Assembly: GCA_043816185.1 (NCBI GenBank) | Contig: JBDRIG010000053.1 | Coordinates: forward strand, 1 to 34,251 | Reading direction: 5' to 3' | Origin: Elusimicrobiota bacterium | GTDB taxonomy: Bacteria; Elusimicrobiota; UBA8919 | Length of the DNA stretch: 34,251 nucleotides | Shown: positions 6,314 through 34,025 of the stretch, one piece after another | How the letters are laid out: every line of letters starts with the position of its first letter | Numbering within the stretch: the stretch's first letter is position 1 | Notes under the pieces: generated by a model | Told to the model about the DNA's origin: nothing | Seen by the model: the letters and a program-made list of their open reading frames with translations, nothing else | The model's database searches: none | Translations under genes and position numbers: made by a program

Positions 6314-7417
6314 CTATGCGATTGTTTTTTCCGTTTTTATGTCAAACATGTGTACTTTATCCATATCAAACACAACCTCAATATCCTGATTAATTTCTGC
6401 TTTATTATAAGCATCTACTCTTGCTATAAATGTATTTTTGCCTGTTGTAAGATATAAATATTTTTCTGCACCTACTGGTTCCACAACTTCAACGGTAACC
6501 ATTACTGTCTTCCCCTCTGTTCCAATACTTGAATAAAATAACTTGTCGTGTATGTGTTCTGGTCTTATGCCGAAAGTAACTTTTTTATTTATATATTCTT
6601 CCAGTGGTGCCACCATTTTTTTGTTTGCTTCAACCACAAAGGTTCCCTCGTCAAGATATATTTTATCATCTTTTTTTACTACCGTACATTCTATAAAATT
6701 TGTCGATGGGGAACCAATAAACCCTGCTACAAACTTATTTGCCGGGCTATGATAAATGGTAAACGGATCTGCTGCTTGGTGTATGACTCCATTTTTTATC
6801 ACCACAACTTTATCTCCCATTGTCATTGCCTCTATCTGGTCGTGGGTAACATATATTATTGTTGATTGAAGCTGTTGATGTAGTTTCTTAATTTCTGTGC
6901 GCATTTGAAATCTTAACTTTGCATCAAGATTTGATAGTGGCTCATCAAATAAAAACACTTTTGGTTTTCTAACAATCGCCCTACCTACCGCTACTCGCTG
7001 TTTCTGTCCACCTGAAAGTTGTTTAGGCAATCTATCCATTAGTTTTTCTAACTCTAACATTTTCGCAATTTTTTCCACTCTTTCCGTTATGTCCTTTTTA
7101 GAATATCCTTTGAGTTTAAGTGCAAACGCCATATTTTTCCGTACAGTCATATGTGGATATAAAGCATAACTCTGAAATACCATTGCTATATCTCTATCTT
7201 TAGGTAGCTTATTGTTAATTAATTTACCGTCAATATAAATCTCACCTTCTGACGGATCCTCCAATCCCGCTATCATTCGCAAGATTGTTGTTTTACCACA
7301 ACCCGACGGTCCCAACAATACACAGAACTCCTTGTCGTTTATTTCTAAATCAATGTTTTTTACTACCTGTGTCTTACCAAACGCTTTACATACATTTTTA
7401 AGCATTACATGTGCCAT
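6314..7417 (-). CDS. Sugar ABC transporter ATP-binding subunit (MalK/MsmX/UgpC family)
   Basis: GPSGCGKT Walker A, VFQSYALYPHM, LSGGQ, DEPLSNLD, YVTHDQ, C-terminal TOBE; AGGAGG SD. Confidence 0.95.
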   Translation of the reverse strand: MAHVMLKNVCKAFGKTQVVKNIDLEINDKEFCVLLGPSGCGKTTILRMIAGLEDPSEGEIYIDGKLINNKLPKDRDIAMVFQSYALYPHMTVRKNMAFALKLKGYSKKDITERVEKIAKMLELEKLMDRLPKQLSGGQKQRVAVGRAIVRKPKVFLFDEPLSNLDAKLRFQMRTEIKKLHQQLQSTIIYVTHDQIEAMTMGDKVVVIKNGVIHQAADPFTIYHSPANKFVAGFIGSPSTNFIECTVVKKDDKIYLDEGTFVVEANKKMVAPLEEYINKKVTFGIRPEHIHDKLFYSSIGTEGKTVMVTVEVVEPVGAEKYLYLTTGKNTFIARVDAYNKAEINQDIEVVFDMDKVHMFDIKTEKTIA

Positions 7418-7420
7418 TTT

Positions 7421-9781
7421 TTACTTCCTCCTATGTTGGTTCTTGTTGATAATTTTTTCAACAATCATCACCTTAACATTGCATTCTTTTTTCTTTCCGT
7501 TATACGGTATCACATCGCCTTCCATTTCCTTGCCATCAACATAAATTTTCTTGGTTTTGTTTATTGTACCATCTTTGAAAATCTCGATATTATATGTTGT
7601 ATTGCGAAACGGTCTTACGATTTTCACCCTCTTAAATTCTGATGGAAGTGCAGGATCAATTATTAATCCTTCATACGATGCTCTTATACCCAGAATCCGC
7701 TCCATAGTAACTTTAAATAACCATTGTGCAGAACCAGTATACCAAGACCAACCGCCCTGACAAAAAAGTTCGCTTTCAGGTCCATAAATATCACCACAGG
7801 TAACATATGGCTCTGTTTTATATTTGTCTGGTTCTAAACTGCAATATATAGTATTTAATTGTTTATATATCTGAGAAACCTTATCCAATCTTTTTAATTT
7901 GCACTCCATAAGCAATGCCCAGCAAGCAGCGTGAACATATACGGCACCGTTTTCTCGTGACGCTGGCGCATACTCAGTTATATAACCAATTGTAGGATCG
8001 GGTTTTTTATATGCAGGGTAGAGCAAAATTGGACCACACTCACGATAAAGATACTTGTCGACTGAATTTAACATTTTTTTTATTTTCTGTTCATCAGTAA
8101 TTATATCATTTATTATCGCCCATGTTTGTGCATTAAGATATATTTTTCCCTCTTTATTATTTTTACTCCCAATCGGCTCACCATTATCTTTTGTTGCAGC
8201 ATAAAACCAATTGCCATCCCAAGTGTATTTATTTATATTTTCTTTTAATCTCTGTGATATTTTTAAATAATTTTTAGAATCTAACTTTAGATGTTCGCAC
8301 ATTTTAACCCAATCGTTTAATATCCCATGCAAAAAATGCCCAAGCCACACACTTTCACCCTTCCAATCCTTTCCAACCGCCGACAAACCATCGTTCCAAT
8401 CGCCTTCGCCAATAAAAGGCAATCCTCGTTTTGAAAATCTTTTAATTACTAAATTTATTGATAGTTCACAGTGTTCATATAAACTTATTTTTTCTTTTTT
8501 ATCTACGAACTCTATTTTTTCTTTTAAGATAGAAAAATCGTTAGTCTCCTTTAAATATTCCAATACGGCAAACGGTAACCACAAGACGGTATCTGAATGC
8601 TTGCTTCTCGGTCCAGTTTCCGTTATAGGATGCCACCAGTGATACACGGTTCCATCGGAAAACTGATGTTTTGCGTGAAGTAGTATCTGTTTTTTTGTAA
8701 GTTCTGGATTAAACGACAAATAAATCAAACTATCTTGCAGCTGGTCTCTAAATCCAATTCCACCAGCAGGCTGAAAATACCCCGTTCTCGCATTTATTCT
8801 GCATGATATTGTTTGATATTTCAACCATGTGTTTGTCAAAAAATCCATTTTTTTATCTTGTGTTTCAATTTTTGTTTTTGATAACATTGTTTGCCAATAT
8901 TTTTTCGTTTCGTCAAAAATTTGATTATACTCTTTATTATACTTGTCAACCAATTTCTTTGCTAAAATTTTATTTTTACTAAGACCGACGGTAAATACAA
9001 CTACTTTCTCTTCTTCTGGCAAAAATTCCATCTCCAAATTAAAACAGGAAACAGGATCAACATATCTACCAACAGCAGAATCAAGATTTTTGCTATTTAC
9101 TCCCTGCGGCGAATAAATATTACCATACTTACCTATAAAATTTTCTTTATTAGTCGTAAATGATGCTGGCTTAATAGAACAACTACTAAAAGAAAATATA
9201 TCAATTAAAGAATTTACTTTTTTCGCAAAGATAATATTATTGTCACAACTGGTCTCAATGAAAAATTTGTGAAACTCGTTATGATTACCACCTACATCTC
9301 TTAAAAACCACTCAAAATATGAATAAAAATTAAGTGTTTTTTTTGTTTTATTTTTATTTTTAATCTTCAAGATATAAACTTCTATTTTATCTTCGGGTGG
9401 AACGAACGCCGTTAACTCGGTATAAATATTGTTAATCTCTGACGATATTATGGTATAGCCAATTCCGTGACGACATTCATAAAAACTATAATTTTGACCC
9501 ATAGGTTTATGGGTAACCGACCATAGTTTTTCCTCATCCTTTACGTATATAAATTTTCCGAATTCTTCTTTGACAAGATCCTGCTCCCAGTGATTTATGC
9601 GAAATAATGCTGGATTTTTATAAAAAGAATATCCTGTTCCCAACTGTGAAATGACCATTCCATAATCATTGGGACAAATTATGTTTACCCATGGCTTTGG
9701 CGTGAATGGCGTTGTTATTACATACTCTGTTCCATCTTCATTAAAATATCCGTACTTCGTCTCAAAAAGTTTTTTTGTCAT
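7421..9781 (-). CDS. GH94 glycoside phosphorylase (candidate beta-1,2-oligoglucan/sophorose phosphorylase)
   Basis: YGYFNEDGTEYVI, TPKPWVN, GFRDQLQD, GDWNDGL, GESVWLG, RENGAVYVHA, GGWSWYTGSA. Family is firm; specificity inferred from context. Confidence 0.88.
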   Translation of the reverse strand: MTKKLFETKYGYFNEDGTEYVITTPFTPKPWVNIICPNDYGMVISQLGTGYSFYKNPALFRINHWEQDLVKEEFGKFIYVKDEEKLWSVTHKPMGQNYSFYECRHGIGYTIISSEINNIYTELTAFVPPEDKIEVYILKIKNKNKTKKTLNFYSYFEWFLRDVGGNHNEFHKFFIETSCDNNIIFAKKVNSLIDIFSFSSCSIKPASFTTNKENFIGKYGNIYSPQGVNSKNLDSAVGRYVDPVSCFNLEMEFLPEEEKVVVFTVGLSKNKILAKKLVDKYNKEYNQIFDETKKYWQTMLSKTKIETQDKKMDFLTNTWLKYQTISCRINARTGYFQPAGGIGFRDQLQDSLIYLSFNPELTKKQILLHAKHQFSDGTVYHWWHPITETGPRSKHSDTVLWLPFAVLEYLKETNDFSILKEKIEFVDKKEKISLYEHCELSINLVIKRFSKRGLPFIGEGDWNDGLSAVGKDWKGESVWLGHFLHGILNDWVKMCEHLKLDSKNYLKISQRLKENINKYTWDGNWFYAATKDNGEPIGSKNNKEGKIYLNAQTWAIINDIITDEQKIKKMLNSVDKYLYRECGPILLYPAYKKPDPTIGYITEYAPASRENGAVYVHAACWALLMECKLKRLDKVSQIYKQLNTIYCSLEPDKYKTEPYVTCGDIYGPESELFCQGGWSWYTGSAQWLFKVTMERILGIRASYEGLIIDPALPSEFKRVKIVRPFRNTTYNIEIFKDGTINKTKKIYVDGKEMEGDVIPYNGKKKECNVKVMIVEKIINKNQHRRK

Positions 9782-9886
9782 AAATTAGTGTACTTCATTC
9801 GTTAATTGATTATATGTTGGCTAACGATACGTTCCGTGTTTTATGTATATTATTATACAGCGTACTGTTAGATAACAGATAACAAA

Positions 9887-10279
9887 TTATTCACCGATAA
9901 ATTCTTTAATTTTTTCAATCAACTTCTCAAAATTTATTGGCTTGGGCATAACAAATATTTTGCCTCCATGCTTATCTACTTGTTTTTCAATAATTACTTT
10001 CACTACATCTTCAGGTGATGTACATGATATAGTAATAACTGGGATAAATACCGTATCGGTAGATATTTTCAATCTATCTAAAACTATATACCCGCCTCCT
10101 GCTGGTAACATTATGTCTAAGATAATTAAATCAGGTTTTTCTTGATGCGCCACCCTTACGCCTTGCATTCCATCAAATGCAATCACCACTTTATATCCTG
10201 CGGTTTGTAATCTATCTTTTAGCAATTCAATAATACTTTCATCGTCGTCAATGACAAGAATCTTGCGTTCTTTTGCCAT
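9887..10279 (-). CDS. Single-domain response regulator
   Basis: ILVIDDD, DLIILDIMLP, KP. ATG at 10279 has a GGAGG SD (ORF track starts at 10297). Confidence 0.88.
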   Translation of the reverse strand: MAKERKILVIDDDESIIELLKDRLQTAGYKVVIAFDGMQGVRVAHQEKPDLIILDIMLPAGGGYIVLDRLKISTDTVFIPVITISCTSPEDVVKVIIEKQVDKHGGKIFVMPKPINFEKLIEKIKEFIGE

Positions 10280-10343
10280 ATACAAAACCTCCCGCATATG
10301 AGGAAAACAATGTAATCTGATATTGTTAAAAAACTCAACAATT

Positions 10344-12809
10344 TTATTGTATCACTATATTTTGTAAATTGCCATTGGTAGAAAATTTTATTTTTAATGT
10401 CCCATTAAAATATTTAACTGATACTTTTTTTTCTGAATTTTCTGAAGACGAATTAATTTTTACAGATTTTGGTTTTTGTGGATATTTTAATTCTATCTCA
10501 GCATTATATGTAGAAGGTGCATGTACATCTAATGATAAAAATTTTCCATCAATTTTGTAATTTAGCACTTCAATATTGCTATATCTGATTTTAATCTGTT
10601 CGCTTAGAGAAACATTTAATGGCAATATCTGAGCCGTGCTACGGAACATTGATATCTCTGGAATCTTTGTATATTTTGTCTCACCTGGAAGAACTAATTT
10701 TACGCTAACCATTTCATCTTGTCTATGATAATTATGTAAAAACAAAAAGCCGAATTTATCATGCCGCTCATTTATGTAGTTATGTGTCATACCTTTGATG
10801 CGAAAGCAAGTGGTGGGATTATCACTACTTCTCAATGTTGCAGAGATATTTGAATTCGTAAGTTCTATTGTTCGCTTTATACCGAGCATATCTGCAAAAT
10901 ATTTTATTATATCTATATGATAATTAAATAAATGTGTAATACCAAATCCAAAAACTACAACCTCACCTTTTCCAATTTTTCTTTTTAACCCACAAACCAA
11001 ATTGTTCACTGTTTTAGATATGATTTCGTCTTCGGCTACCGCACTGTAAACCTGAACTTTATCTACGGTATACACATCGCTACCCCACCGATTATCCTTG
11101 ACTCGGAGATCTAATTTTTTGGTTGGCAGGCGGGCTGGATTATTTTTAACAAAAACAATATTTTCATTGATACTATTTTGTATAGAAAATCCAAAACTTT
11201 TAGCAATATTTTGTGTTACAGAGGGACCTATAACTAATTTCCCTCCACATTTAACGAATTCAACTAATTTTTGTTCTGTTTGAAAATCCATAAATTCAAG
11301 TGAAAAAACCCACAGATGCGGAATCTTTTTAAGTTCAGAGATTGCAATTGTTTCTAAATTAACAAAATTGTAATTAAATCCAGCAAGCTGCACCAATCTT
11401 GCAATACCATCAAAAAAGAAATTATTTCTTTTCATTTCAAGTTCATTTATAAATTTTCCTTGTAAAAGTTCTGTTGCATAATAAGGTGGATAAAAACCAA
11501 TTGTTGTGTCGAACATTTTTTTCGTTTGTGCCAATTTGCTTCCAAAAGATTTTATAAATGTACCAAAAAGTTTTATTGGTTTAAAATGTAATCTTTCTTT
11601 TCCTTCGGAACTAACGGGTGCCTGCCATTCATGATAACTACCAAATATACCTGTCCCTAATTGATCTTTTCCGCCTGAGAACATATAACAGTTCAATCCA
11701 TTTAATCCATGTGCAGTAGATGTTTTCAAATTTAGCTCAACATCTTGGGAATAAATTTTTGGTCTATCTAACAGTATGCCTGTTTGCAGTTCACAGCACA
11801 TACTCGGAATGTGGGGTGAGGAAACCATTTTTACCACTTCGGTAGTTATCGCTACATCGTGAAAATTTTCCCAATCTAATTCTCGCATTTGATATGCACC
11901 ACCAAAAATTACATCTGGAACATATTTTATAAAATTCTTAAACATAATTGTCGTCATAGGACTATATATTCCACGACCTCGCACATCAAAATCATAAAAC
12001 TGCGGTATATTAGCAATAACTGGAACTGTTATGCCAAATTTTTTTGCGGTTGTGTAAAGTATTCCGAAATATCTTGCATAATAATCGCAATAGAAATAGA
12101 TCCAATCACAATACAATAAAAATTTTTCTTTTTCTGCCTCATTATTTGGTTGTGAAATTTCATCAAAATTTTGATATTTTGTATCGTAAGAATTGTTCAA
12201 TTTGTTTATAGTTCCATACTTATCTTGTAGAAAATTTCTATACATCTTCTCCGTATTTTCACTATAATCAGGTGCCTTATGCAGCCATTGAATCACACCA
12301 ATTTCATTACAAAGTTGAGCAAGAATTATTGGACCATTTTTTTCAATTTGAAATTCCGATATTAAGGGTAAAAGTTTAGAATACCATCTTTCAACAAATT
12401 TTAAGTAAGTTGGATTGTGATAAGAAATAAGGGTTACTTGTGTTAGTTTCGCCAACTCTTTTGCTTTTACATATACCTGTGGATAATTTTCATATAACCA
12501 TTTTGGAAGACCCTCACAAATTAGTTCTGCGTTTGAAGCAGGACCCACTCTGGCAATAAAATAAAGATTTAATTCCTTCAGAAGTTTTATAAAAGCTAAG
12601 AGTTCATCAAAATTGAATTCTCCTTCTTCTTTTTCGTGTATACACCAAGGAATATACGACGATATTGTGTTTAGTCCTGCTTTTTTTGCTTTCAAAAGAT
12701 GTGCACGCCAATATTTTTTTTCAATACGGAAATAGTGCATTTCACCCGAATAAACAAAAAACGGTTTTTGGTTTAATAAAATCATGTTATTGATAAGTTC
12801 GATTTTCAT
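10344..12809 (-). CDS. GH35 glycoside hydrolase/transglycosylase, GlmA/SGT-like architecture
   Basis: SGEMHYFR, AGLNTISSYIPW..HE..EG.FNF, GGLP-like EGLPKWL, QLCNE acid/base, CELQTG, NCYMFSGG, and a GH42-like middle domain LWVFSLEFMD...LVEFVKCGGKLVIGP. Confidence 0.85.
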   Translation of the reverse strand: MKIELINNMILLNQKPFFVYSGEMHYFRIEKKYWRAHLLKAKKAGLNTISSYIPWCIHEKEEGEFNFDELLAFIKLLKELNLYFIARVGPASNAELICEGLPKWLYENYPQVYVKAKELAKLTQVTLISYHNPTYLKFVERWYSKLLPLISEFQIEKNGPIILAQLCNEIGVIQWLHKAPDYSENTEKMYRNFLQDKYGTINKLNNSYDTKYQNFDEISQPNNEAEKEKFLLYCDWIYFYCDYYARYFGILYTTAKKFGITVPVIANIPQFYDFDVRGRGIYSPMTTIMFKNFIKYVPDVIFGGAYQMRELDWENFHDVAITTEVVKMVSSPHIPSMCCELQTGILLDRPKIYSQDVELNLKTSTAHGLNGLNCYMFSGGKDQLGTGIFGSYHEWQAPVSSEGKERLHFKPIKLFGTFIKSFGSKLAQTKKMFDTTIGFYPPYYATELLQGKFINELEMKRNNFFFDGIARLVQLAGFNYNFVNLETIAISELKKIPHLWVFSLEFMDFQTEQKLVEFVKCGGKLVIGPSVTQNIAKSFGFSIQNSINENIVFVKNNPARLPTKKLDLRVKDNRWGSDVYTVDKVQVYSAVAEDEIISKTVNNLVCGLKRKIGKGEVVVFGFGITHLFNYHIDIIKYFADMLGIKRTIELTNSNISATLRSSDNPTTCFRIKGMTHNYINERHDKFGFLFLHNYHRQDEMVSVKLVLPGETKYTKIPEISMFRSTAQILPLNVSLSEQIKIRYSNIEVLNYKIDGKFLSLDVHAPSTYNAEIELKYPQKPKSVKINSSSENSEKKVSVKYFNGTLKIKFSTNGNLQNIVIQ

Positions 12810-12955: not shown

Positions 12956-12965
12956 CACTATCTTT

Positions 12966-16271: not shown

Positions 16272-16548
16272 TTCATACACTCCTGTTTGTTATGCCTGCT
16301 TTTCGCCTACACTGGGCCTTAGATAATTCTTACAACTCTCAATTCCACCATTTTCTTATTGCTACCGATATATCATTCTTAACGGAATTTTTGATTTGCC
16401 TGTGGTTACTGTTGTTACCGAAATTGTGAAGTATTACACTTCGGAACAATTGGATTAATGCCCATGAATTTTATAATGTCCCATAGCCCCGTAGTGGCGA
16501 TATATTAGTAGAAACTCACCGCTTTTAAGGACGATTATACGGAAATTA

Positions 16549-19753: not shown

Positions 19754-19837
19754 TTTTATTTTTTTGTTCTTGGAAAATTTTTTATAACTTCTTATTTTAT
19801 TCGCTTCGCACACAATGACTGGCAGGTAGCTCGCAAT

Positions 19838-26584: not shown

Positions 26585-28363
26585 TTATTTTGCCACAGCA
26601 ATTGTTCCGCTGACGAGTTTCGTTTTATCACCTACTTTTGCTTTGAATTGATAAATATACACGCCACTCTCAACAATATTTCCAGATTCGTCTAAACCAT
26701 CCCATCTTGGCCCGCTCGAACTATCCTGATTTATTGTTATTACTTTTCTACCTGTGATATCGTAAATATTTATTTCAAATTCATTATCTAACTTATTAAA
26801 ATTTGCAAAATCATTGTGTGTATCGACACTTGCTGGTGTAATTATTCTTTCTTTCGGTCGATAATCAGCAGCGGTCAACGGTTTTATTGGAAAAACTCCA
26901 AACAATGAAAAATGCATAATTTTTGCACTAACAGTATTTAACAACGTGTCTACTTCGCCACCAACAAGCCGCCATTCAAATCCATCCCACCAGAATATAC
27001 CAAGTTTTGTTTCATCGGTATCTATCTCTGTACCGTCTAACGATTCTGGCTTACCATTATTATCTAAGTCAAGATAAAGCAATGTTAGCTGTGCGGGTTT
27101 TTTAAACGATAGGCCGGATGGACCAAACTCATATATAGCAACTGGTCTTTTACTTCCAGCAGCACCATTACCGTCGGAAATATCAGGGTCAGACGGATCC
27201 CTGTTGATAACTGAAATATCTATCTCGTTTGCAAGCGCTCCGTCTGGAATATTTAAAGATGTAATGCCATCGTCAGGATTACCGTCTAAAATTTCTATAA
27301 GTCCCCTTTTTATACCAAGAAATGCAGATTTTGAATTTATTTCTATTACCTGCGGACTACTTTCATCTTTATCTTCCCACCATTTAGTAGCGTCATATTC
27401 ATCGGTTGCCTCTATTGCATAATAAACTTTACCGACAATATCTGCTTCGGTTGATTTGATTACGGCGTAGCAATTCTTACTATATGGCTGCCCATTTAGA
27501 ACCATATCTTTTGTTCGCCAATTGCTGTTATTTATTTTATAATGTAATTTCACAGATTTAACTCCATCCTCATCATCTACAGTTGCATTTATAACTATTT
27601 TATTTCCAAGCATATTAATTTTTCGAAATGATGTATGACTAATTTCAGGCGGTGTTGGTGTTCCACTAATACCTGAACATAAATCAAACCAGATTGTTCC
27701 AGAATAGTCACCTGCGGCGATATTGCTCAATACTCCCTCGACATATAGATATATTGGTGAGTTACAAAGTGTATTATCGGGCAATTTGCTATAGTTAAAA
27801 CCACCGTAGACAATTTTTGTATATCCTGCTTCTTGTGCTTTACTCCAAGATTCGTCGTCACTTGGCGTTTCAGGTATATCAACATCTCTCCTATCTTTTA
27901 GCCATAACCAACCAGACGATTCTTCGCTTGGACTACCATTCAATATTGAACTTTGCGTAGAATCAAATACTTTCCAGCCAAGTGGCAATCTTGATGTGTT
28001 GGCAGATGTATTTAACAACCCACCTTTTTGATACCCCGTTTCAGCGGTAGTGTTGTTTGTATAAACATCGATTCCCCACGCCAAACTGCCTGTTCTTGGT
28101 TGAAAATTTATTTCTAAATACTGTTGCGAGAGTTTATAGGTTTCATCATAAGATATGTTGCCAAAATCCAACCTTTCGGCTGTTTGATTATCGGAAATGT
28201 TTTTAAGTGCAACTGTTAAACTACCACTACTATAGATAGTCGCACCATTGACAGCAATTAAATTATTTTTAACGCTACTACGAGAAATTGTTAAATCACT
28301 ATTGGCGATAAGAGCCGTTATGGTAATTAACAAGTATACGAAAACAAAAATTATATTTTTCAT
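26585..28363 (-). CDS. Secreted multidomain protein: WxL/pilin-like domain, Ig-like domain, ZU5-like domain (HFS motif), T9SS-like CTD
   Basis: Signal peptide; N-domain paralogous to 28366-29088; LNIPDGAL...YEFGPSGLSFKKPAQLTL...HFSLFGV; C-terminal IYDITGRKV...WDGLDESGNIVESGVYIYQF...IAVAK. Confidence 0.75.
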   Translation of the reverse strand: MKNIIFVFVYLLITITALIANSDLTISRSSVKNNLIAVNGATIYSSGSLTVALKNISDNQTAERLDFGNISYDETYKLSQQYLEINFQPRTGSLAWGIDVYTNNTTAETGYQKGGLLNTSANTSRLPLGWKVFDSTQSSILNGSPSEESSGWLWLKDRRDVDIPETPSDDESWSKAQEAGYTKIVYGGFNYSKLPDNTLCNSPIYLYVEGVLSNIAAGDYSGTIWFDLCSGISGTPTPPEISHTSFRKINMLGNKIVINATVDDEDGVKSVKLHYKINNSNWRTKDMVLNGQPYSKNCYAVIKSTEADIVGKVYYAIEATDEYDATKWWEDKDESSPQVIEINSKSAFLGIKRGLIEILDGNPDDGITSLNIPDGALANEIDISVINRDPSDPDISDGNGAAGSKRPVAIYEFGPSGLSFKKPAQLTLLYLDLDNNGKPESLDGTEIDTDETKLGIFWWDGFEWRLVGGEVDTLLNTVSAKIMHFSLFGVFPIKPLTAADYRPKERIITPASVDTHNDFANFNKLDNEFEINIYDITGRKVITINQDSSSGPRWDGLDESGNIVESGVYIYQFKAKVGDKTKLVSGTIAVAK

Positions 28364-28365
28364 TT

Positions 28366-29088
28366 TTAATAAACCAAATCAAACCATACACTACTACTAT
28401 ATGACATTTTACCTTCAATATAATTAAACAAACCTTCTAAATAAACTACAATCGGCGAAACCGCAGATATACCATAAGACAAGTTTTTATAACTCGGTCC
28501 ACCATATAATATTGTTGGATAACCAGTGTTGTATGAGGCAGTCCAGCTTTCATCCCATGCGGTTGTATTTGGGTCATCTATGTCGGCTTTATCCTTCACA
28601 TAAATCCACGCAGCAGAAATTGTCGTAGTTGAACCATTAACTGTATTTTTTATCAATTCACCTGGCTCGCCAATATTTGCAATAGAAACAACTGAGTCGG
28701 AAACAACCAAACCAAGTGGCACACGAACGGTTGTTGTAGATGTGCTTAACAATCCGCCTTTTTGATACCCAGTTTCTGCGGTAGTGTTGTTTGTATAAAC
28801 ATCAACTCGCCAGGAAAAATAGTTACAATTCGCTGACAATTCAATATATTGTTGTGCTGATTGCCACCCAGAACCAAGAATTTGATCTGCCCAGTTAACA
28901 GACAGAACCTCTGCATTGTTGGACACGTTTTTAATTTTAATATTGATTTCGGATACGCCAAGAACTGTAGATGTGGAAGGTATTCCCACCGATACATCAA
29001 TATCAGCAAACAAATTTTTACTGCCAAAAATTGCAGATACGATAATTGATATGATAGTTAGACAAAACAATAATTTAATTTTTTTCAT
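28366..29088 (-). CDS. Secreted single-domain protein of unknown function (WxL/pilin-like)
   Basis: Signal peptide, beta-rich, ends YSSSVWFDLVY; shares DVYTNNTTAETGYQKGGLL and W...KD..D.D.P.T...DESW with the next gene. Confidence 0.7.
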   Translation of the reverse strand: MKKIKLLFCLTIISIIVSAIFGSKNLFADIDVSVGIPSTSTVLGVSEINIKIKNVSNNAEVLSVNWADQILGSGWQSAQQYIELSANCNYFSWRVDVYTNNTTAETGYQKGGLLSTSTTTVRVPLGLVVSDSVVSIANIGEPGELIKNTVNGSTTTISAAWIYVKDKADIDDPNTTAWDESWTASYNTGYPTILYGGPSYKNLSYGISAVSPIVVYLEGLFNYIEGKMSYSSSVWFDLVY

Positions 29089-29195: not shown

Positions 29196-32100
29196 CTATG
29201 GTATTACCTCTCCACTAAATCGTATATCATCAACATATATTGTTCCAGATGAAGCACCACTGTTTGTTTCCACGATAAATTCAATTGAATCCACGGATTC
29301 CCAAGCAATTCCTGTTGGTAAATTGTAGGTAAGTTCTGTCCATATGTTTGCTGTGGGAGCCTTTTTTACAGATGTTGTTGAATAGATCGCTCCGTCCCAG
29401 AAACCTATTTTTATATTATTTGTTGTGGACGAACACCGTGCCCATATCTTAACTGATTTATATCCGCTCCAATTGGCATTGAGATTATCACCACTTGTAA
29501 CCTTGGCGTATCCACTAATAGCACCACTCCATTGCAAAAATACCGATGCTGCAGAGGATACAGGGCAAGTATAGTTGTGTGTTATGGGTTCTTTTCTACC
29601 CAAGTGGCTGGCGTTCCAGTTAACAAAATCGCCACCGTAAGTCCAGATTCGAGAAGGATCGTCCATGTTGTCCCAGTCCTCTACACTGGAAGACACCAAT
29701 CTAATATTATCAAAATATACATCGCTTGCTACACCACCTAACTGCTGAATAGAAAATGTAATAGCCGCGACAGTGCTATAATCTAACGCAGATGTAAATG
29801 TATATGAAATAGGTAACCATTGGTTGAGTGCCAAATTACTATTCCAAAGAGTTTCTATTGCAGGGTCAAACGTTCGAGGTCGAGGTTGAATACCTACATC
29901 TATTGTATTGGCAGAAGAATCTATATAAACATCTGCCTTAAAACCTGTAACGGGACTCTCCCAGTTTTCGTTTGAGAAAGTCCAATCGGTGCGCATATAT
30001 CCACCGTCTGCCCCTGCATTCCAGTGAGCTTTAAGACATTGTCTTCCCTGAAAACTTACCCATGTTAAAGTAGGTGCTGTCACTCCCCATCCTTCTGGAC
30101 ACCAGTAATGTGAATTACAATCGTCCCACAATGTCCATAATCTTACTGTTGCACTGGCACTATTAGAAATACCTGACCAGTTTCCCGCTTCATCACAAGT
30201 CCAAATTCTAAAATAGTATACCGTACCTTCGGTCAAGCCAGTTACTACCCTTCCTACTACAACATTAGGATTTACGCCTGATGTAGAAATGGCAATTTGT
30301 GCATTTGTTATTGACCATGGTTCGGAAGCCGAAACCGAATATTGAATTTTGTATTGACTCCCAAGTGGTAACACTCCTAACGAGCCGTCGTCCCCAGGTG
30401 TTTGCCATGTTAAATTGATTTCTCCACCAAGTATGCCTGTAACCGCCGATAAAGTATTTATTTGAGCAGGTGGTACAGCATCAACGACTTTTGCTGGTGC
30501 ACTGGCACTATTAGAAATACCTGACCAGTTTTCTGCTTCATCGCAAGTCCAAATTCTAAAATAATATACCGTACCTTCGGTCAAGCCAGTTACTACCCTT
30601 CCTACTACAACATTAGGATTTACGCCTGATGTAGAAATGACAATTTGTGCATTTGTTATTGACCATGGTTCGGAAGCCGAAACCGAATATTGAATTTTAT
30701 ATTGACTCCCTAATAAAAGTGTATTGCTCAAACCATCATCTCCAGGTGTAGACCAACTCAAATTTATCTCTCCACCAAGTGCGCCTGTCAACGCCGATAA
30801 ATTAGTTATTGCGGACGGCAATGTTGTATCGGCAACATAAAATGTCAATTTATCTGACGATGGACTCCAATTAAATGAGTCGTCACAAAGTTTTAGCCAG
30901 AAATAATACATTTTGTTTCCTGGCAAGTTCGATATTATTCTCGATTGATTGCTTCCAGCAACAACATTTGTTGACCATATAATACCATAATCCAAATATT
31001 TATTTGGTGCCGTATCCCAAGTATCGGTAGCGACGGTTGAAAACTTAATTTCATACATTCCATTTGAAATGTTTCCCGTCGTACCGTCGTCACCTGTCGC
31101 TGTCCATATAAGTTTAACATTACCATTGGTTGTCTGCGCACTCAAATCTGTAATTTTTCCTGGCGAAGTAATGTCATTATTAAAACCTAGTATAGTAAAT
31201 GCATTTTGAATATATGTAAGATTAGAAAAAGTGTTTTTTACAAGATTTGATCGTTTATTTTCTATTGCGATTAAAGCAGCACCTTGCTGAACTCCTACCA
31301 CATCTGGAGTACGCCACATACCGCCCACCGTGTTGTAAGAATCGCAAAATGTGTATTTGCCCCAAATATTATTTTTGTAGTTACCATAGAGATACCGCAT
31401 CGCACTGATTACCTGAGTAGGACGCTCTGTTATCGCCGTGAGCAAATTGCTTATTGCAACTGTACCGTCATGATCGCCAATACCATACGCATGATAACCG
31501 CCAGAACCGTCACTACCACCAAGCCCCCAACTGTTTTCGTTGTATGTAGAATAAAGTGTGCGATTATCGTAAGCATATTTATGTTGATGAATTGTTGCCT
31601 CAAAAGTATTTGTAGCATAACAGTCATAAGCATCTTTTTTACCTTGAAGATCAATAAACAATTGTGGATACTGATGAGTAAAAAGCGATTTCTCAAAAAT
31701 ATAACTTATATCATTATATGTTGCTGGCGCCCTTGTTAAACTATTCCAACCATTCGCATTGGGCAACTTTTTCACAGATTCAGGTGAACCCACTCCAAGC
31801 ATATATGCAAGTATGCATTCGCTATAGTTGCCCATTTCGGTTTGATTAAACCCACCTTCTGGTGTCCAACCCCAATCAAGTAAATTATTGCCATTTAGCA
31901 TCCAATTCCAATCAACTCGTCTATACATCTGGTCTGCAAAATCCCATGGCGCATTGTAACCATAATTCTTAAAATATTTTCCTGCAAACAATGCTCCTGA
32001 AAGAAATATCGACGAATCTATCGTTGAGAGTTCACTTCCGCTAACTCTTGCACCACCAAAGTTTGTATAATGGTAATAAAAACCTTTATACCGAACCAAC

Positions 32101-34025
32101 ATTGGAGAACCTGCTTCACTACTTTCAGGTGCATTAAAATATGCACTCAAGATTGTATATATTCGGTTATACGCATCGGTAAAATTTATCCATCCACGAG
32201 AATGGGCTATGCAGATATTTACCAATCCGAGTCCTGTGGCAGCAACACTCGTATATCCATATGTATCACTGGTAAAATTTTTCGTTCTATCTTGGACAAT
32301 ACCTTTATCAGGATTTGATTCTACCCAATAATACCAAAAAATTTGTTTTTGAATTAAATCCAATAACTGGTCGTCAGTCATAGTAGTTATATCGGGATAA
32401 TGTTTTACCGTTAAATTAGTTTTTGGTGCCATCGCAGACTCATTCCCAGAACTATCTCTTGCAATCGCACGAAGTTCATATGTCTGTGGTGATTCGGATA
32501 GTTCTGCTGTATCCCAATATGCAGAATAAGTATTGTCTGAAATATCATAATCTGTTCCTATGGTTATCCAACTTCCAGCACTTGGACGATATTCAAACCT
32601 GATACTTTCTAACGTAGAATCTTGCAGCCCACTGTTCGCTGTACAGGTAAGCCAATTTATCCAAGTGAAATTATCGCTGTCAGCGACAGTTCTGCCGACC
32701 GCTGTATCCATAACTTTAAGATTTGTTGGTACGATTGGAAGTGTTGTATCGCCCGAATAACCGCTTTTTTCAAATTGTACATCGTCAATATAAACAGTGC
32801 CAACTTCGTGCCCGTAAGGAGTGTCCCAATATTTGATAATAAACACCACTTCGTCTATTTTATATCCAGCAGTACTTAAACCAGAAAAATGATAAAATGG
32901 TATTGTCATTTTTTTCCAAGAAGTGCTTATATCAATAATAATATATGTGTTAATAGTATACCCTGTGCGTTTAAGCTCTACTTGCATTTTTTCTGGATTA
33001 TTAACACCAGGTTTTGCTTTTATCCAAAAAGTTATTTGGCTGTATGGAGAAAAATCTTGTGCCACCTTGCCCCAGCCAGTAGTGGTACCACCAACAATAT
33101 TAAAAACACCTGCATAAGAATCTACCACTCGTACATCATAGTCCATTTGGAGACAATTTGGGGACGAATGATATTGCGATGAACTAAAACTACGGACAAT
33201 GGACGCTGTATCAAAAACATCCCCCATCTCACCACCTGTACTATTTACACCTAATTTGTCGCCATAATAATCGAAACGAACAGTGCCCTGAAATTCTGAT
33301 CCTATTATTAAGTTATCAATGTAGATTGATCCTGAGGTTGAACTATTGTTGGTAGTTGCTGCTGATTTTTCAAACACAATTGTCATTTCATATATTTTTG
33401 TCCAATCTGTAACATTACAAAAATTATCGAAAGGAATTGTAACTTTTTTCCACTGAGTAGTAACCCCACCGTCTAAATAATCATTAATATAGATACGGGA
33501 CTTCCACCCACCAGCACCTGTGGAAAGTTCAATCTTGAAAAATTCACCACCTACCCCTCCTTTCACATAAAAACTCAGATATTTGTAGTCGCTTAAATCG
33601 CGAGGATTGGTATGATGAAATCTTGTCCAGTATCCTGAATACGATTCGTTAGCGGAAACATTGTAATTTATTTGTAATGAACAACCGCTGCCACCAACTG
33701 CAACCGTTGAAACTATAATTTCATTTGCAGTACCACCACTTCCAGTAAACGATCCACCAGGAGCACCAAGATTGTTTGGCGAAACACCATCATCAAAATC
33801 GTCAATTATTAATGTTGATGGATTTTTTACATACACGCTACCAGTAGTCGATGTTGATACAGTTAACGATATTAAATTATCCACAAAAATAGATAAAACG
33901 AGTAGCGTCGTTAACGCCGTCGCAAGATTACGCCCGACTTTAACTGGTTGAAAAAATACTCCTGTTAAAGTGGAAAATAGGACAAGCGATTTTTTTGTAA
34001 GTTTGTTTTTAATTTGTGTAATCAT
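29196..34025 (-). CDS. Large secreted GH144/SGL-clan glucanase: 2x CBM11/CIA30-like, Ig-like, catalytic domain, 3x FN3-like, 2x CBM-like
   Basis: Catalytic region ~32381-31180 (SVAATGLGL, KGFYYHY, SELSTIDS, WGWTPE, YSE, LFTHQY, WGLGGSDG, HDGTVA, IENKRS); FN3-like W(T/S/Q)(A/T)(T/P)GDDG repeats ~31180-30140; CBM-like ends IYIDNL, VYIDDVQF, VYFDNIRL, IYVDDIRF. Confidence 0.82.
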   Translation of the reverse strand: MITQIKNKLTKKSLVLFSTLTGVFFQPVKVGRNLATALTTLLVLSIFVDNLISLTVSTSTTGSVYVKNPSTLIIDDFDDGVSPNNLGAPGGSFTGSGGTANEIIVSTVAVGGSGCSLQINYNVSANESYSGYWTRFHHTNPRDLSDYKYLSFYVKGGVGGEFFKIELSTGAGGWKSRIYINDYLDGGVTTQWKKVTIPFDNFCNVTDWTKIYEMTIVFEKSAATTNNSSTSGSIYIDNLIIGSEFQGTVRFDYYGDKLGVNSTGGEMGDVFDTASIVRSFSSSQYHSSPNCLQMDYDVRVVDSYAGVFNIVGGTTTGWGKVAQDFSPYSQITFWIKAKPGVNNPEKMQVELKRTGYTINTYIIIDISTSWKKMTIPFYHFSGLSTAGYKIDEVVFIIKYWDTPYGHEVGTVYIDDVQFEKSGYSGDTTLPIVPTNLKVMDTAVGRTVADSDNFTWINWLTCTANSGLQDSTLESIRFEYRPSAGSWITIGTDYDISDNTYSAYWDTAELSESPQTYELRAIARDSSGNESAMAPKTNLTVKHYPDITTMTDDQLLDLIQKQIFWYYWVESNPDKGIVQDRTKNFTSDTYGYTSVAATGLGLVNICIAHSRGWINFTDAYNRIYTILSAYFNAPESSEAGSPMLVRYKGFYYHYTNFGGARVSGSELSTIDSSIFLSGALFAGKYFKNYGYNAPWDFADQMYRRVDWNWMLNGNNLLDWGWTPEGGFNQTEMGNYSECILAYMLGVGSPESVKKLPNANGWNSLTRAPATYNDISYIFEKSLFTHQYPQLFIDLQGKKDAYDCYATNTFEATIHQHKYAYDNRTLYSTYNENSWGLGGSDGSGGYHAYGIGDHDGTVAISNLLTAITERPTQVISAMRYLYGNYKNNIWGKYTFCDSYNTVGGMWRTPDVVGVQQGAALIAIENKRSNLVKNTFSNLTYIQNAFTILGFNNDITSPGKITDLSAQTTNGNVKLIWTATGDDGTTGNISNGMYEIKFSTVATDTWDTAPNKYLDYGIIWSTNVVAGSNQSRIISNLPGNKMYYFWLKLCDDSFNWSPSSDKLTFYVADTTLPSAITNLSALTGALGGEINLSWSTPGDDGLSNTLLLGSQYKIQYSVSASEPWSITNAQIVISTSGVNPNVVVGRVVTGLTEGTVYYFRIWTCDEAENWSGISNSASAPAKVVDAVPPAQINTLSAVTGILGGEINLTWQTPGDDGSLGVLPLGSQYKIQYSVSASEPWSITNAQIAISTSGVNPNVVVGRVVTGLTEGTVYYFRIWTCDEAGNWSGISNSASATVRLWTLWDDCNSHYWCPEGWGVTAPTLTWVSFQGRQCLKAHWNAGADGGYMRTDWTFSNENWESPVTGFKADVYIDSSANTIDVGIQPRPRTFDPAIETLWNSNLALNQWLPISYTFTSALDYSTVAAITFSIQQLGGVASDVYFDNIRLVSSSVEDWDNMDDPSRIWTYGGDFVNWNASHLGRKEPITHNYTCPVSSAASVFLQWSGAISGYAKVTSGDNLNANWSGYKSVKIWARCSSTTNNIKIGFWDGAIYSTTSVKKAPTANIWTELTYNLPTGIAWESVDSIEFIVETNSGASSGTIYVDDIRFSGEVIP
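30150..30710. repeat. Intragenic direct repeat (FN3-like modules, 348-bp period)
   Basis: 30150-30362 vs 30498-30710: 6 differences in 213 bp by manual alignment. Confidence 0.9.

What the first reader, a model, noticed from the sequence alone, without database searches (positions are those of the whole stretch)
6314..34025. SusC/SusD-free, CBM-based beta-1,2-glucan capture and utilisation locus
Seen: ~28 kb of co-oriented genes with two GH144/SGL-clan enzymes, GH35, GH94 and an ABC importer, plus seven non-catalytic envelope genes. No TonB-dependent receptor, SusD, GH3 or LacI-type regulator is in the window. Known: GH144 enzymes are endo-beta-1,2-glucanases, and GH94 phosphorylases and ABC binding proteins occur in beta-1,2-glucan loci. 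Inference: this is an alternative PUL design in which a CBM-fused barrel, a CBM lipoprotein and CTD-exported CBM proteins replace the Sus apparatus, possibly for scavenging cyclic or periplasmic beta-1,2-glucans made by other bacteria.
Basis: partly seen in the sequence, partly recalled or inferred. Interest (0 to 1): 0.85.

Follow-up and report, generated by a model that had tools for sequence, protein, structure and literature searches.

The report
Beta-1,2-glucan feeding locus with CBM-barrel
An uncultured Elusimicrobiota bacterium carries a 28-kb gene cluster for eating beta-1,2-glucan, a sugar polymer made by other bacteria. Its enzymes and importer resemble a published cluster, but its outer-membrane part is an undescribed set of sugar-binding modules and barrels.

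Summary
Fifteen co-oriented genes (6314-34025, minus strand) encode:
- two GH144 enzymes with intact catalytic residues;
- a GH35 protein closest to the beta-1,2-glucosyltransferase IaSGT;
- an ABC importer whose binding protein is closest to the sophoro-oligosaccharide binder Lin1841;
- seven non-catalytic envelope proteins.

The enzyme and importer core is homologous to the published Ignavibacterium album SGL cluster (PMC8861115), so that part is known.

The envelope part is new:
- A CBM11-fold module occurs 9 times in 5 proteins and nowhere else in the genome.
- One copy is fused to a plug-less barrel of TonB-receptor size.
- Two proteins with a type IX secretion-type C-terminal domain (CTD) each precede a PorV-like barrel. 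That pairing holds genome-wide (9 of 12 CTD genes).

In 151 genomes sampled from the phylum, all 12 with the barrel also have GH144, and in 10 of them it lies within 8 kb.

"SusC/D-free" is trivial, because SusD is Bacteroidota-specific. No transport or binding has been shown. The window is a whole contig that ends 226 nt upstream of the first gene.

The scan has noted CTD/PorV pairs and CBM11-GH144 loci before on other DNA.

Verdict: a new variant of a known kind, of moderate interest.

The parts
29196..34025 (-). 1609-aa multidomain GH144 enzyme. It has an N-terminal hydrophobic leader, two CBM11-like modules (aa 70-244 and 251-421), a GH144 catalytic domain (aa ~545-960), fn3-type repeats and a C-terminal CBM-like module (aa 1462-1605). 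No CTD.
   Evidence: PF10091 scores 147 bits, with CBM_11, CBM30 and fn3 hits. PDB GH144 chains match at E 1.8e-42 to 1.4e-27; one further SGL-clan chain, 8xuk, matches at 6.6e-07. D670, E736, F782 and Y844 align with the functional residues of the 830-aa paralogue.
28366..29088 (-). 240-aa exported beta-sandwich protein of an unnamed family. It is a paralogue of the N-terminal 228 aa of the next gene.
   Evidence: 35% identity to the 592-aa protein, E 4e-40. 133 representative clusters match at E<=1e-3. None of the 16 members scanned had a Pfam domain over the shared region. AF2 model pLDDT 94. The best fold matches are TasA-like and pilin subunits at only Z 7.2-5.
26585..28363 (-). 592-aa protein: a 240-like N-terminal domain, an unassigned middle part and a T9SS type-A C-terminal sorting domain.
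   Evidence: TIGR04183 scores 25.5 bits against a cut-off of 23. CHU_C and FlgD_ig hits. Paralogy to the 240-aa protein.
25472..26560 (-). 362-aa PorV/PorQ-family outer-membrane barrel, 24 nt downstream of the 592-aa CTD gene.
   Evidence: NF033709 E 5e-21, 75.6 bits, below the cut-off of 90.
24421..25098 (-). 225-aa lipoprotein made of one CBM11-like module (aa 57-225).
   Evidence: The lipobox-like FFAGC is read from the sequence. Module HMM E 2e-69. Orthologues occur in L042-L046.
21942..24434 (-). 830-aa GH144 enzyme: a CBM11-like module (aa 29-195), a GH144 catalytic domain (aa ~215-625) and CBM9 (aa 669-814).
   Evidence: PF10091 scores 213 bits and CBM9_1 58 bits. PDB matches: XcSGL 8xul at 1.6e-61 and CpSGL 5gzh at 3.5e-46. 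E397, F442 and Y504 align with CpSGL E211, F268 and Y330. D332 aligns with CpSGL E142, and XcSGL also has D there.
20008..21942 (-). 644-aa protein with three CBM11-like modules and a T9SS type-A CTD (aa ~548-644).
   Evidence: CBM_11 E 1e-21 in 3 stretches, plus CHU_C. TIGR04183 scores 26.7 bits against a cut-off of 23.
18857..19813 (-). 318-aa PorV/PorQ-family barrel, 194 nt downstream of the 644-aa CTD gene.
   Evidence: NF033709 E 3e-18, 66 bits, below the cut-off. Orthologues follow the 644-type gene in L042 and L044-L046; in L043 a 225-type CBM gene lies between them.
16549..18750 (-). 733-aa fusion of a CBM11-fold domain (aa ~54-246) to a plug-less outer-membrane barrel of about 20-24 strands (aa ~271-733). 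The C-terminal Phe is invariant.
   Evidence: No Pfam or PDB sequence hit. There are 15 relatives, those named being called Elusimicrobiota. F733 is invariant in 16 of 16 sequences. AF2 model pLDDT 67. VIA-align: CBM11 1v0a at Z 15.8 over aa 51-249; SusC-like BT1763 at Z 15.7 and FyuA, BtuB and Cir at Z 14.6-14.9 over aa ~272-733. Atlas resemblance to DUF6029.
13989..16280 (-). 763-aa fusion of a sophoro-oligosaccharide-type solute-binding protein to an ABC permease.
   Evidence: SBP_bac_1 plus BPD_transp_1. PDB matches: 3uor at 5.7e-79 and Lin1841 5ysb at 3.7e-78; the next best is 2.8e-38.
12966..13838 (-). Second ABC permease (290 aa).
   Evidence: BPD_transp_1; UgpE/MalG-type.
10344..12809 (-). 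821-aa cytoplasmic GH35 of the IaSGT (beta-1,2-glucosyltransferase) clade.
   Evidence: 7vkw matches at E 1.3e-105, against 3e-56 for the best chain outside the IaSGT set (5gsl; the named glucosaminidase 5gsm gives 1.8e-51). The acid/base E176, nucleophile E343 and E102 are conserved. L100, R349, F180 and Q106 are replaced.
9887..10297 (-). 136-aa receiver-only response regulator.
   Evidence: Response_reg E 4.5e-17. A homologue is present in only 1 of 42 related GH35 loci.
7421..9781 (-). 786-aa cytoplasmic GH94 phosphorylase.
   Evidence: GH94 catalytic and supersandwich domains. [quoted passage not shown]
6314..7417 (-). 367-aa MalK/UgpC-type ABC ATPase.
   Evidence: ABC_tran, OB_MalK and TOBE; NF008653 scores 477 bits.

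Best explanation
This is a beta-1,2-glucan (sophoro-glucan) scavenging locus of an uncultured Elusimicrobiota bacterium.

Shown by homology:
- Two GH144 endo-beta-1,2-glucanase homologues have the family's functional residues.
- The ABC importer's binding protein is closest to the sophoro-oligosaccharide binder Lin1841.
- A cytoplasmic GH35 is closest to the beta-1,2-glucosyltransferase IaSGT.
- A cytoplasmic GH94 is closest to the beta-1,2-specific phosphorylase domain of cyclic glucan synthase.

Inferred mechanism:
1. Exogenous linear or cyclic beta-1,2-glucan is caught at the cell surface by CBM11-fold modules.
2. Those modules are displayed on a lipoprotein (225 aa) and on a three-module protein (644 aa). 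The type-IX-style C-terminal domain of the 644-aa protein docks it on its private PorV-like barrel (318 aa).
3. The GH144 enzymes, which carry the same module, cut the glucan to oligosaccharides.
4. The 733-aa protein passes glucan or oligosaccharides across the outer membrane without TonB. It is a TonB-receptor-sized barrel whose plug position is taken by a CBM11-fold domain.
5. The permease-tethered binding protein and the ABC system import the oligosaccharides.
6. GH94 phosphorolyses them to glucose-1-phosphate, and GH35 handles sophorose.

The 240/592/362 trio is a second CTD-cargo/PorV-like unit of unknown role, possibly a surface fibre.
For: Substrate:
- PF10091 hits for both GH144 genes. 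PDB matches to XcSGL, CpSGL and the sophorohydrolase BDI_3064.
- CpSGL E211, F268 and Y330 equivalents are conserved in both enzymes, and the E142 position holds D as in XcSGL.
- The binding protein matches Lin1841 at 3.7e-78, against 2.8e-38 for the next family.
- GH35 matches IaSGT at 1.3e-105 with both catalytic Glu.
- The best GH94 match is the Cgs C-terminal domain.
- The same core is published for I. album.

Envelope module tied to the locus:
- A module HMM hits 9 domains in 5 ORFs out of 4811 genome ORFs, all in this locus.
- Conserved gene order 225 / 644-CTD / 318 / 733 next to GH144 in 3 of the 5 loci found with the 733-aa family (L042, L044, L045). L046 has the same order on a separate contig of the same MAG as L044, and L043 has a changed order with no GH144 within its 7.4 kb.
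- 9 of 42 GH35 loci carry the 733-type barrel, and all 9 are labelled Elusimicrobia.
- In 151 phylum genomes, 12 have the barrel and 12 of those 12 have GH144; in 10 of the 12 it lies on the same contig within 8 kb. GH144 occurs in 26 of 151 overall.

Barrel and CBM folds. C-terminal Phe invariant in 16 of 16.

CTD/PorV pairing: 9 of 12 CTD ORFs are followed on the same strand by a PorV-family ORF, with gaps of -4 to 194 nt and one of 1420 nt.

Scavenging rather than own glucan: no GH94 or PF10091 outside the window and no MdoG.
Against: - No biochemical data exist for any protein here.
- GH94 is almost as similar to cellobiose phosphorylases (427 against 459 bits).
- CBM11 and CBM9 are known for beta-1,4 and mixed-linkage glucans. 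Beta-1,2 binding is inferred from context only.
- Neither GH144 enzyme has a CTD or another recognisable outer-membrane export signal, so where the polymer is cut is unknown.
- The N-terminal domain of a C-terminal barrel is usually periplasmic. The CBM on the 733-aa protein may therefore not face outward.
- The model is of medium quality (pLDDT 67, pTM 0.52). The barrel matches are ties among TonB receptors and porins.
- The 318- and 362-aa barrels score below the PorV_fam cut-off.
- The T9SS machinery is doubtful. The SprA-like ORF scores 133 bits against a cut-off of 200. No PorU body was found. The GldL and GldM searches had no working control.
- The genome is 94% complete and the contig ends 226 nt upstream of the locus. 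Four TonB receptors exist elsewhere.
Confidence: 0.6

Rival explanations
1. The enzymes and importer do use beta-1,2-glucan, but the envelope genes are only surface-display and anchoring parts. The 733-aa barrel anchors a CBM, as a Wzi-type lectin barrel does, and does not conduct glycan. Outer-membrane uptake goes through another route: an off-contig or distant TonB-dependent transporter, or general porins.
For: - CTD/PorV-like pairs are a genome-wide theme unrelated to glycans, and PorV-family genes number 2-54 per genome in 21 relatives.
- DUF6029-like barrels were linked by HHpred to Wzi-type polysaccharide barrels (PMC9603273; Atlas).
- The I. album authors propose a TonB-dependent transporter.
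- The contig ends at the locus border, and 4 TonB receptors are present elsewhere.
Against: - Two of the other TonB receptors look like B12, haem or siderophore types, and two are divergent.
- No TonB receptor was seen in the 21 ORFs scanned from the related Elusimicrobia loci L053 and L049.
- The barrel is kept next to GH144 in 10 of 12 genomes.
Confidence: 0.2
2. The locus turns over the cell's own periplasmic or cyclic beta-1,2-glucan rather than scavenging foreign glucan.
For: - Eight of 151 phylum genomes have open frames of 2445-3048 aa with PF10091 matches, which is the size of cyclic glucan synthases.
- In L049 a protein of at least 2281 aa with a C-terminal GH94 lies next to the locus.
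Against: - In this genome, GH94 and PF10091 occur only in the window and MdoG/OpgG is not found.
- Surface-display features such as the CTD proteins and the lipoprotein CBM fit an external substrate.
- The genome is 94% complete, so absence is not proven.
Confidence: 0.1
3. The real substrate is another beta-glucan or glucoside, such as cellodextrins, mixed-linkage glucan, laminarin or sophorosides.
For: - GH94 is nearly as close to cellobiose phosphorylases.
- CBM11, CBM30 and CBM9 folds are known from cellulases and xylanases.
- IaSGT uses aryl- and alkyl-glucoside acceptors.
Against: - The three named and characterised GH144 chains among the PDB matches (XcSGL, CpSGL, BDI_3064) act on beta-1,2 linkages.
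- The binding protein is far closer to Lin1841 than to other sugar binders.
- GH35 is far closer to IaSGT than to other GH35 enzymes.
Confidence: 0.08

Closest known systems
Ignavibacterium album SGL gene cluster IALB_1177-1187 (Kobayashi et al. 2022, PMC8861115; abstract and passages read)
   Same: Two GH144 homologues, a GH35 (IaSGT) homologue with the same catalytic Glu pair, a GH94 homologous to the C-terminal domain of cyclic glucan synthase, and a sophoro-oligosaccharide-type ABC binding protein.
   Different: The authors invoke a TonB-dependent transporter for outer-membrane passage. Here none is in the contig. Instead there are a CBM11-barrel fusion, a CBM lipoprotein, CTD proteins and PorV-like barrels. 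The binding protein is fused to a permease. GH35 lacks IaSGT R349 and L100.
Listeria innocua SOGP cluster (Lin1839 phosphorylase, GH3 glucosidase, Lin1841 binding protein; as summarised in PMC8861115)
   Same: Import of sophoro-oligosaccharides through a Lin1841-type ABC system, followed by GH94 phosphorolysis.
   Different: That host is Gram-positive and has no outer-membrane stage. No long SOGP-type GH94 chain appears among the PDB matches at E<=1e-10. No GH3 was found in this genome.
Bacteroidota SusC/SusD polysaccharide utilisation loci
   Same: The same logic: surface glycan binding, endo-cleavage, outer-membrane passage, then further breakdown. The barrel of the 733-aa protein aligns best, in a tie, with the SusC-like BT1763 barrel (Z 15.7).
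   Different: There is no SusD, plug domain, recognisable TonB box or PF00593 sequence match. The N-terminal domain is a CBM11 fold. The phylum is different.
Cytophaga hutchinsonii chu_1276-chu_1280 'atypical PUL' (PMC12016534; abstract and passages read)
   Same: A glycan locus without SusC/D, in which a TBDT-like barrel protein, a further outer-membrane protein, CBM-like binding proteins and an endoglucanase act together.
   Different: Its substrate is cellulose and its host is a Bacteroidota species. The CBM and the barrel are separate proteins. Sequence homology to the proteins here was not tested.
T9SS cargo/barrel pairs: type-B CTD with PorP/SprF-like proteins, and PorU-PorV / PorZ-PorQ (PMC9143113 and PMC12618676, search listing only)
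   Same: A gene for a CTD-bearing protein sits next to the gene for its own FadL-type barrel, thought to carry or anchor it.
   Different: Here the CTDs match the type-A model and the barrels the PorV/PorQ model. The phylum is Elusimicrobiota. No PorU sortase was found and only a weak SprA-like ORF.

Membership tests
GH144 (endo-beta-1,2-glucanase family) | Sequence match to PF10091 above the curated cut-off. | tested here: met
   213 and 147 bits against a cut-off of 27.
GH144 (endo-beta-1,2-glucanase family) | General-acid Glu (CpSGL E211) and the clan-defining Phe and Tyr (F268, Y330). | tested here: met
   E397, F442 and Y504 in the 830-aa protein. E736, F782 and Y844 in the 1609-aa protein. 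Residue roles are taken from PMC12102758.
GH144 (endo-beta-1,2-glucanase family) | Hydrolysis of beta-1,2-glucan. | not testable with these tools
   Needs an enzyme assay.
I. album-type SGL gene cluster | GH144 pair, IaSGT-type GH35, Cgs-type GH94 and a Lin1841-type ABC binding protein in one cluster. | tested here: met
   published description.
I. album-type SGL gene cluster | TonB-dependent transporter associated with the cluster. | tested here: not met
   No PF00593 match in the window; the 4 matches lie on other contigs. The contig ends at the locus border.
IaSGT (GH35 beta-1,2-glucosyltransferase) | Acid/base E176, nucleophile E343 and E102 at subsite -1. | tested here: met
   All three align with Glu (roles).
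IaSGT (GH35 beta-1,2-glucosyltransferase) | R349 at subsite +1 and L100 in the aglycone pocket. | tested here: not met
   R349 is replaced by L and L100 by N. The paper says both vary among homologues.
Bacteroidota PUL (SusC/SusD pair) | A SusD-family gene next to a SusC-type TonB-dependent transporter. | tested here: not met
   No PF07980 match in the genome and no PF00593 match in the window.
TonB-dependent transporter (for the 733-aa protein) | A barrel of about 22 strands. | tested here: inconclusive
   Z 14.5-15.7 to SusC-like, FyuA, BtuB and Cir barrels with 365-384 residues aligned, but porins follow at Z 13-14. Model pLDDT 67.
TonB-dependent transporter (for the 733-aa protein) | An N-terminal plug domain and a sequence match to PF00593 or PF07715. 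| tested here: not met
   No Pfam hit at E<=0.01, or at E<=1 in 16 members. The N-terminal domain has the CBM11 fold.
CBM11 / CBM30 beta-sandwich modules | Fold and sequence similarity. | tested here: met
   1v0a at Z 15.8, rmsd 2.4 A, 145 residues aligned; 2c24 at Z 15.1. Pfam CBM_11 is above its cut-off for the 644- and 1609-aa proteins. The other copies are linked by BLAST and HMM.
CBM11 / CBM30 beta-sandwich modules | Carbohydrate binding, and which ligand. | not testable with these tools
   Needs binding assays.
Type IX secretion cargo with PorV-type partner | A type-A C-terminal sorting domain. | tested here: met
   TIGR04183 scores 26.7 and 25.5 bits against a cut-off of 23.
Type IX secretion cargo with PorV-type partner | A PorV/PorQ-family barrel. 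| tested here: inconclusive
   NF033709 E 3e-18 and 5e-21, but 66 and 76 bits are below the cut-off of 90. Five other copies in the genome pass it.
Type IX secretion cargo with PorV-type partner | Core machinery: SprA/Sov translocon, PorU sortase and GldL/M motor. | tested here: inconclusive
   The SprA-like 1743-aa ORF scores 133 bits against a cut-off of 200. PorU matches cover only its CTD end. GldL and GldM were not found, but no control genome rang.

The most novel reading that the evidence does not exclude
The 733-aa family would be a new class of TonB-independent outer-membrane glycan importer. It is a plug-less barrel of TonB-receptor size whose N-terminal CBM11-fold domain takes the place of the plug, and would act as a tethered binding ratchet or gate for beta-1,2-glucan. 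It would work together with CBM proteins mounted on private PorV-like barrels by a sortase-less, type-IX-like display system. Together these would form an Elusimicrobiota-specific counterpart of the Sus apparatus.
Probability: 0.3. Interest if true: 0.8.

Novelty: new variant of a known kind. Interest (0 to 1): 0.55.

Why it matters
Beta-1,2-glucans are periplasmic and symbiosis- or virulence-related polymers of many Gram-negative bacteria. How other bacteria harvest them across an outer membrane is unknown, and the only published proposal is an untested TonB-dependent transporter.

This locus offers a defined, conserved and testable candidate set for that step in a phylum with no genetic model:
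- a CBM-barrel fusion;
- a module family that may be the first beta-1,2-glucan-binding CBM;
- surface display through CTD/PorV-like pairs.

The locus takes about 2% of a 1.44-Mb genome. No second binding-protein or permease copy of this ABC type was found with the queries used. It is therefore probably a main carbon-acquisition route for this organism.

Tried and rejected
The docking idea is therefore untested.
- The single-protein locus search with GH35 found nothing. The search with an alignment did.
- PDB sequence search with the 733-aa protein found no match at E<=1.
- Foldseek on the 733-aa model gave only generic barrels at TM 0.18-0.47.
- Foldseek on the 240-aa model gave no match at E<=1e-3. 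VIA-align gave a best Z of 7.2 (TasA-like TLP-1b) with pilins at Z 5-6, which is within the range of chance folds. The fibre-subunit idea stays a lead.
- Pfam on 16 members of the 733-aa family at E<=1 showed no DUF6029 or TonB-receptor match.
- The 'longer' homologue search with the 225-aa CBM protein gave only 2 proteins, one of them fused to PF10091. That is too few to test module-enzyme association.
- Promoter and terminator scans did not clearly differ from shuffles: 95 found against 94.3 +/- 9.5, 48 against 36.0 +/- 6.1 (about 2 sd), terminators 9 against 10.2 and 7 against 4.8. No operon boundaries were called.
- Rfam found no match in the window, so no riboswitch.
- The GldL and GldM searches are uninformative because no control genome rang.
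- The L049 giant GH94 protein is not a clear cyclic glucan synthase. Its only match to Cgs covers aa 1448-1711 at E 1.8e-10.
- I considered that the small barrels are glycan channels. I rejected this in favour of CTD docks because of the genome-wide pairing.

Full report
**Observation**

The window is the whole contig C53 of a 1.44-Mb assembly that has 112 contigs and is 94% complete. All ORFs of 200 aa or more are on the minus strand.

From 34025 down to 6314 there are 15 genes. Pfam, NCBIfam and PDB sequence searches identify, in order:
- a 1609-aa GH144 multidomain protein;
- a 240-aa unknown protein;
- a 592-aa protein with a type-IX-style C-terminal domain (CTD);
- a 362-aa PorV/PorQ-family barrel;
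- a 225-aa lipoprotein;
- an 830-aa GH144-CBM9 protein;
- a 644-aa protein with three CBM11-like modules and a CTD;
- a 318-aa PorV/PorQ-family barrel;
- a 733-aa protein with no sequence match;
- a binding-protein/permease fusion;
- a permease;
- GH35;
- a receiver-only response regulator;
- GH94;
- a MalK-type ATPase.

None of the 20 ORFs scanned from the window is a TonB-dependent receptor, SusD, GH3 or LacI protein. The genome has no GH3 and no SusD match. It has four TonB receptors on other contigs; two look like B12, haem or siderophore types and two are divergent. The first gene starts 226 nt from the contig end, so the upstream border is open.

**Taxon**

Fifteen relatives of the 733-aa protein, and the loci found with it and with GH35, carry source names. 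Most say Elusimicrobiota or Elusimicrobia. Four loci are labelled Clostridia or Deltaproteobacteria MAGs; I did not test those labels. Earlier notes of this scan on the same genome say the same phylum.

**Substrate**

- GH144. Both proteins match the solved GH144 chains: XcSGL, CpSGL, the sophorohydrolase BDI_3064 and four chains deposited as putative glucoamylases. In the printed alignment the CpSGL chain numbering equals the published numbering. The 830-aa protein has E397, F442 and Y504 at CpSGL E211, F268 and Y330. It has D332 at E142, where XcSGL also has D (residue roles from passages of PMC12102758). The 1609-aa protein has D670, E736, F782 and Y844 at the same positions.
- Binding protein. 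It matches 3uor and Lin1841 at E 5.7e-79 and 3.7e-78. The next family is at 2.8e-38.
- GH35. It matches IaSGT at 1.3e-105, against 3.3e-56 for the best chain outside the IaSGT set (5gsl; the named glucosaminidase 5gsm gives 1.8e-51). It keeps E176, E343 and E102 but not R349, L100, F180 or Q106. The paper says R349 and L100 vary among homologues.
- GH94. [quoted passage not shown] No long SOGP chain appears at E<=1e-10.
- Localisation. From their N-termini, GH35 and GH94 have no leader.

**Precedent**

Kobayashi et al. 2022 (PMC8861115; abstract and passages read) describe an I. album cluster. It has two GH144 homologues, the GH35 IaSGT, a GH94 homologous to the Cgs C-terminal domain and a Lin1841-type binding protein. 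They suggest a TonB-dependent transporter for outer-membrane passage. The enzyme and importer core here is therefore a known kind.

Relatives of the GH35 occur in 72 loci of many uncultured phyla. Forty-two of these have GH35 at 35% identity or more; the search window was +/-10 kb and several contigs are short. Among the 42:
- 21 hold the GH94;
- 20 hold the binding protein;
- 21-22 hold a permease;
- 9 hold the ATPase;
- 8 hold a GH144.

**The envelope module**

1. A CBM-like module of about 170 aa is shared by five proteins. A profile built from six copies hits 9 domains in 5 ORFs out of 4811 genome ORFs of 50 aa or more, all in this locus.

2. The 733-aa protein:
   - It has 15 relatives and a C-terminal Phe invariant in 16 of 16 sequences.
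   - Its AF2 model (pLDDT 67, pTM 0.52) shows a beta-sandwich at aa 55-245 and about 20-24 long strands from aa 271.
   - VIA-align gives CBM11 1v0a at Z 15.8 (rmsd 2.4 A, 145 residues aligned) and CBM30 at Z 15.1 for the first part.
   - For the second part it gives the SusC-like BT1763 barrel at Z 15.7 (378 aligned) and FyuA, BtuB, Cir and FptA at Z 14.5-14.9. Porins follow at Z 13-14, so these are ties.
   - Foldseek lists only outer-membrane barrels.
   - The ESM Atlas points to DUF6029 clusters. One paper links that domain by HHpred to Wzi-type polysaccharide barrels (PMC9603273, passages).
   - There is no plug, no PF00593 match and no PDB sequence match.

3. Both CTDs pass the type-A model cut-off, and both small barrels match PorV_fam below its cut-off. 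Genome-wide there are 13 PorV-family matches and 12 CTD ORFs, the latter from the union. Nine of the 12 CTD ORFs are followed on the same strand by a PorV-family ORF, with gaps of -4 to 194 nt and one of 1420 nt. By my arithmetic, chance would give about 0.1 such ordered pairs among roughly 1400 genes.

4. PorV-family copies number 2-54 in each of 21 related genomes.

5. The T9SS machinery is doubtful:
   - A SprA-like 1743-aa ORF scores 133 bits against a cut-off of 200.
   - PorU matches cover only its CTD end.
   - The GldL and GldM searches had no working control.

6. The 240-aa protein and the first 228 aa of the 592-aa protein are paralogues. They belong to an unnamed family of 133 representative clusters. 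None of the 16 members scanned had a Pfam domain on the shared part. The model is confident (pLDDT 94), but its best fold matches are only Z 7.2 (TasA-like) and Z 5-6 (pilins). This is a lead, no more.

**Co-occurrence**

- The five loci found with the 733-aa family keep this gene order:
  - L042: 240 / 225 / GH144 / 644 / 318 / 733 / binding protein.
  - L044 and L045: 592 / 362 / 225 / 225 / 644 / 318 / 733 / GH144.
  - L046: the same order without the 592 / 362 pair.
  - L043: 644 / 225 / 318 / 733.
- Nine of the 42 GH35 loci hold the barrel, and all nine are labelled Elusimicrobia. Pfam on 21 ORFs of two of them (L053, L049) shows no TonB receptor. The order there is CTD-CBM protein, small barrel, CBM9 protein, CBM-barrel, binding protein-permease fusion, permease, GH35, CBM protein, GH144-CBM9 and GH94, with the ATPase following in L053.
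- In 151 genomes sampled from the phylum, 14 match the family profile and 12 of them match over the barrel part. All 12 are among the 26 genomes with PF10091. In 10 of the 12 a PF10091 match lies on the same contig within 8 kb.
- Relatives are not independent, so these counts describe conservation and are not a statistical test.
- The two small-genome families (0 of 44 and 0 of 45) lack the barrel.

**Own or foreign glucan**

GH94 and PF10091 occur only in the window and MdoG is not found. No known beta-1,2-glucan synthesis gene was seen in this 94%-complete genome. No second binding-protein or permease copy of this ABC type was found with the queries used.

**Mechanism**

Shown by homology: endo-cleavage by GH144, import of sophoro-oligosaccharides, and cytoplasmic phosphorolysis and transglycosylation.

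Inferred:
- the CBM11-like modules bind beta-1,2-glucan;
- the lipoprotein and the CTD protein display those modules on the surface;
- the CTD proteins dock on their neighbouring PorV-like barrels;
- the 733-aa barrel is the outer-membrane passage.

Open points:
- where the GH144 enzymes sit, because they have no CTD;
- on which side of the membrane the CBM of the barrel protein lies;
- what the 240/592/362 trio does.

**Novelty**

The concept of a SusC/D-free glycan locus with a TBDT-like barrel and CBM-like proteins is in print for C. hutchinsonii cellulose use (PMC12016534, abstract and passages). CTD/barrel gene pairs are in print for Bacteroidota (listing only).

My paper searches gave the following:
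- Elusimicrobia with GH144: 2 papers, both insect-gut surveys by title.
- Elusimicrobia with T9SS: 2 papers. One I read in passages and it does not treat this; the other I saw only as a listing.
- DUF6029: 2 copies of 1 work.

None of these describes this module. Supplements were not read.

Earlier AI notes of this scan report related things on other DNA: CTD/PorV-like pairs in Elusimicrobiota, CBM11-like modules on GH144-clan enzymes in Omnitrophota, and a SusD-less beta-1,2-glucan locus in an Eisenbacteria-like genome. I tested the pairing rule on this genome myself.

**Verdict**

This is a real, conserved beta-1,2-glucan locus. Its core is known and its envelope module is new and untested.

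Noticed in passing
window 13989-16280: The solute-binding protein and the first permease are one 763-aa ORF. The same fusion occurs in L042 (744 aa), L053 (776 aa) and L049 (784 aa). In G014 the two are separate genes of 407 and 298 aa.
   Followed up: partly
window 30146-30810: A 348-nt tandem duplication (1.9 copies, 87% identical) inside the 1609-aa gene. It duplicates an fn3-type module.
   Followed up: no
G000 contigs C7, C50, C67, C93, C103 and C53: Genome-wide rule: 9 of 12 ORFs ending in a type-IX-style CTD are followed on the same strand by a PorV/PorQ-family barrel ORF. PorV-family matches number 2-54 per genome in 21 relatives.
   Followed up: partly
G000:C112:37089-42320: A 1743-aa ORF with three stretches matching the T9SS translocon SprA/Sov (E 6e-39, 133 bits, below the cut-off of 200). 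No PorU body was found.
   Followed up: partly
phylum genomes G004, G014, G060, G063, G091, G106, G113, G123: Open frames of 2445-3048 aa with PF10091 matches, the size of cyclic beta-1,2-glucan synthases. Some Elusimicrobiota may make the polymer that others eat. This was not verified further.
   Followed up: no
L049:15426-22268: A protein of at least 2281 aa with C-terminal GH94 domains lies next to a related locus. Its only match to cyclic glucan synthase covers aa 1448-1711.
   Followed up: partly
L012:13528-20000 and L013:1-5495 (G014:C53): In G014 the related locus is split by an insertion carrying LexA-like, Bro-N and type I-C Cas genes. The insertion lies between the CBM lipoprotein and the GH144-CBM9 gene.
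   Followed up: partly
window 2-6036: Downstream on the same strand are a histidine kinase fragment, a FIST protein, a GAF-GGDEF cyclase, a receiver protein and a GAF histidine kinase. In G014 a GAF-GGDEF gene and a receiver gene also follow the MalK gene and a second binding protein. This may be c-di-GMP-linked regulation of the locus.
   Followed up: no
L053:2256-4121: A related Elusimicrobia locus encodes a 622-aa protein joining an OmpA peptidoglycan-binding domain to a CBM9-like domain.
   Followed up: no
G000:C50:1112-1843: A second copy of the 240-aa family elsewhere in the genome (39% identity). Some members of the family sit at the C-terminus of GH2_C/GH72-like TIM-barrel proteins.
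   Followed up: no
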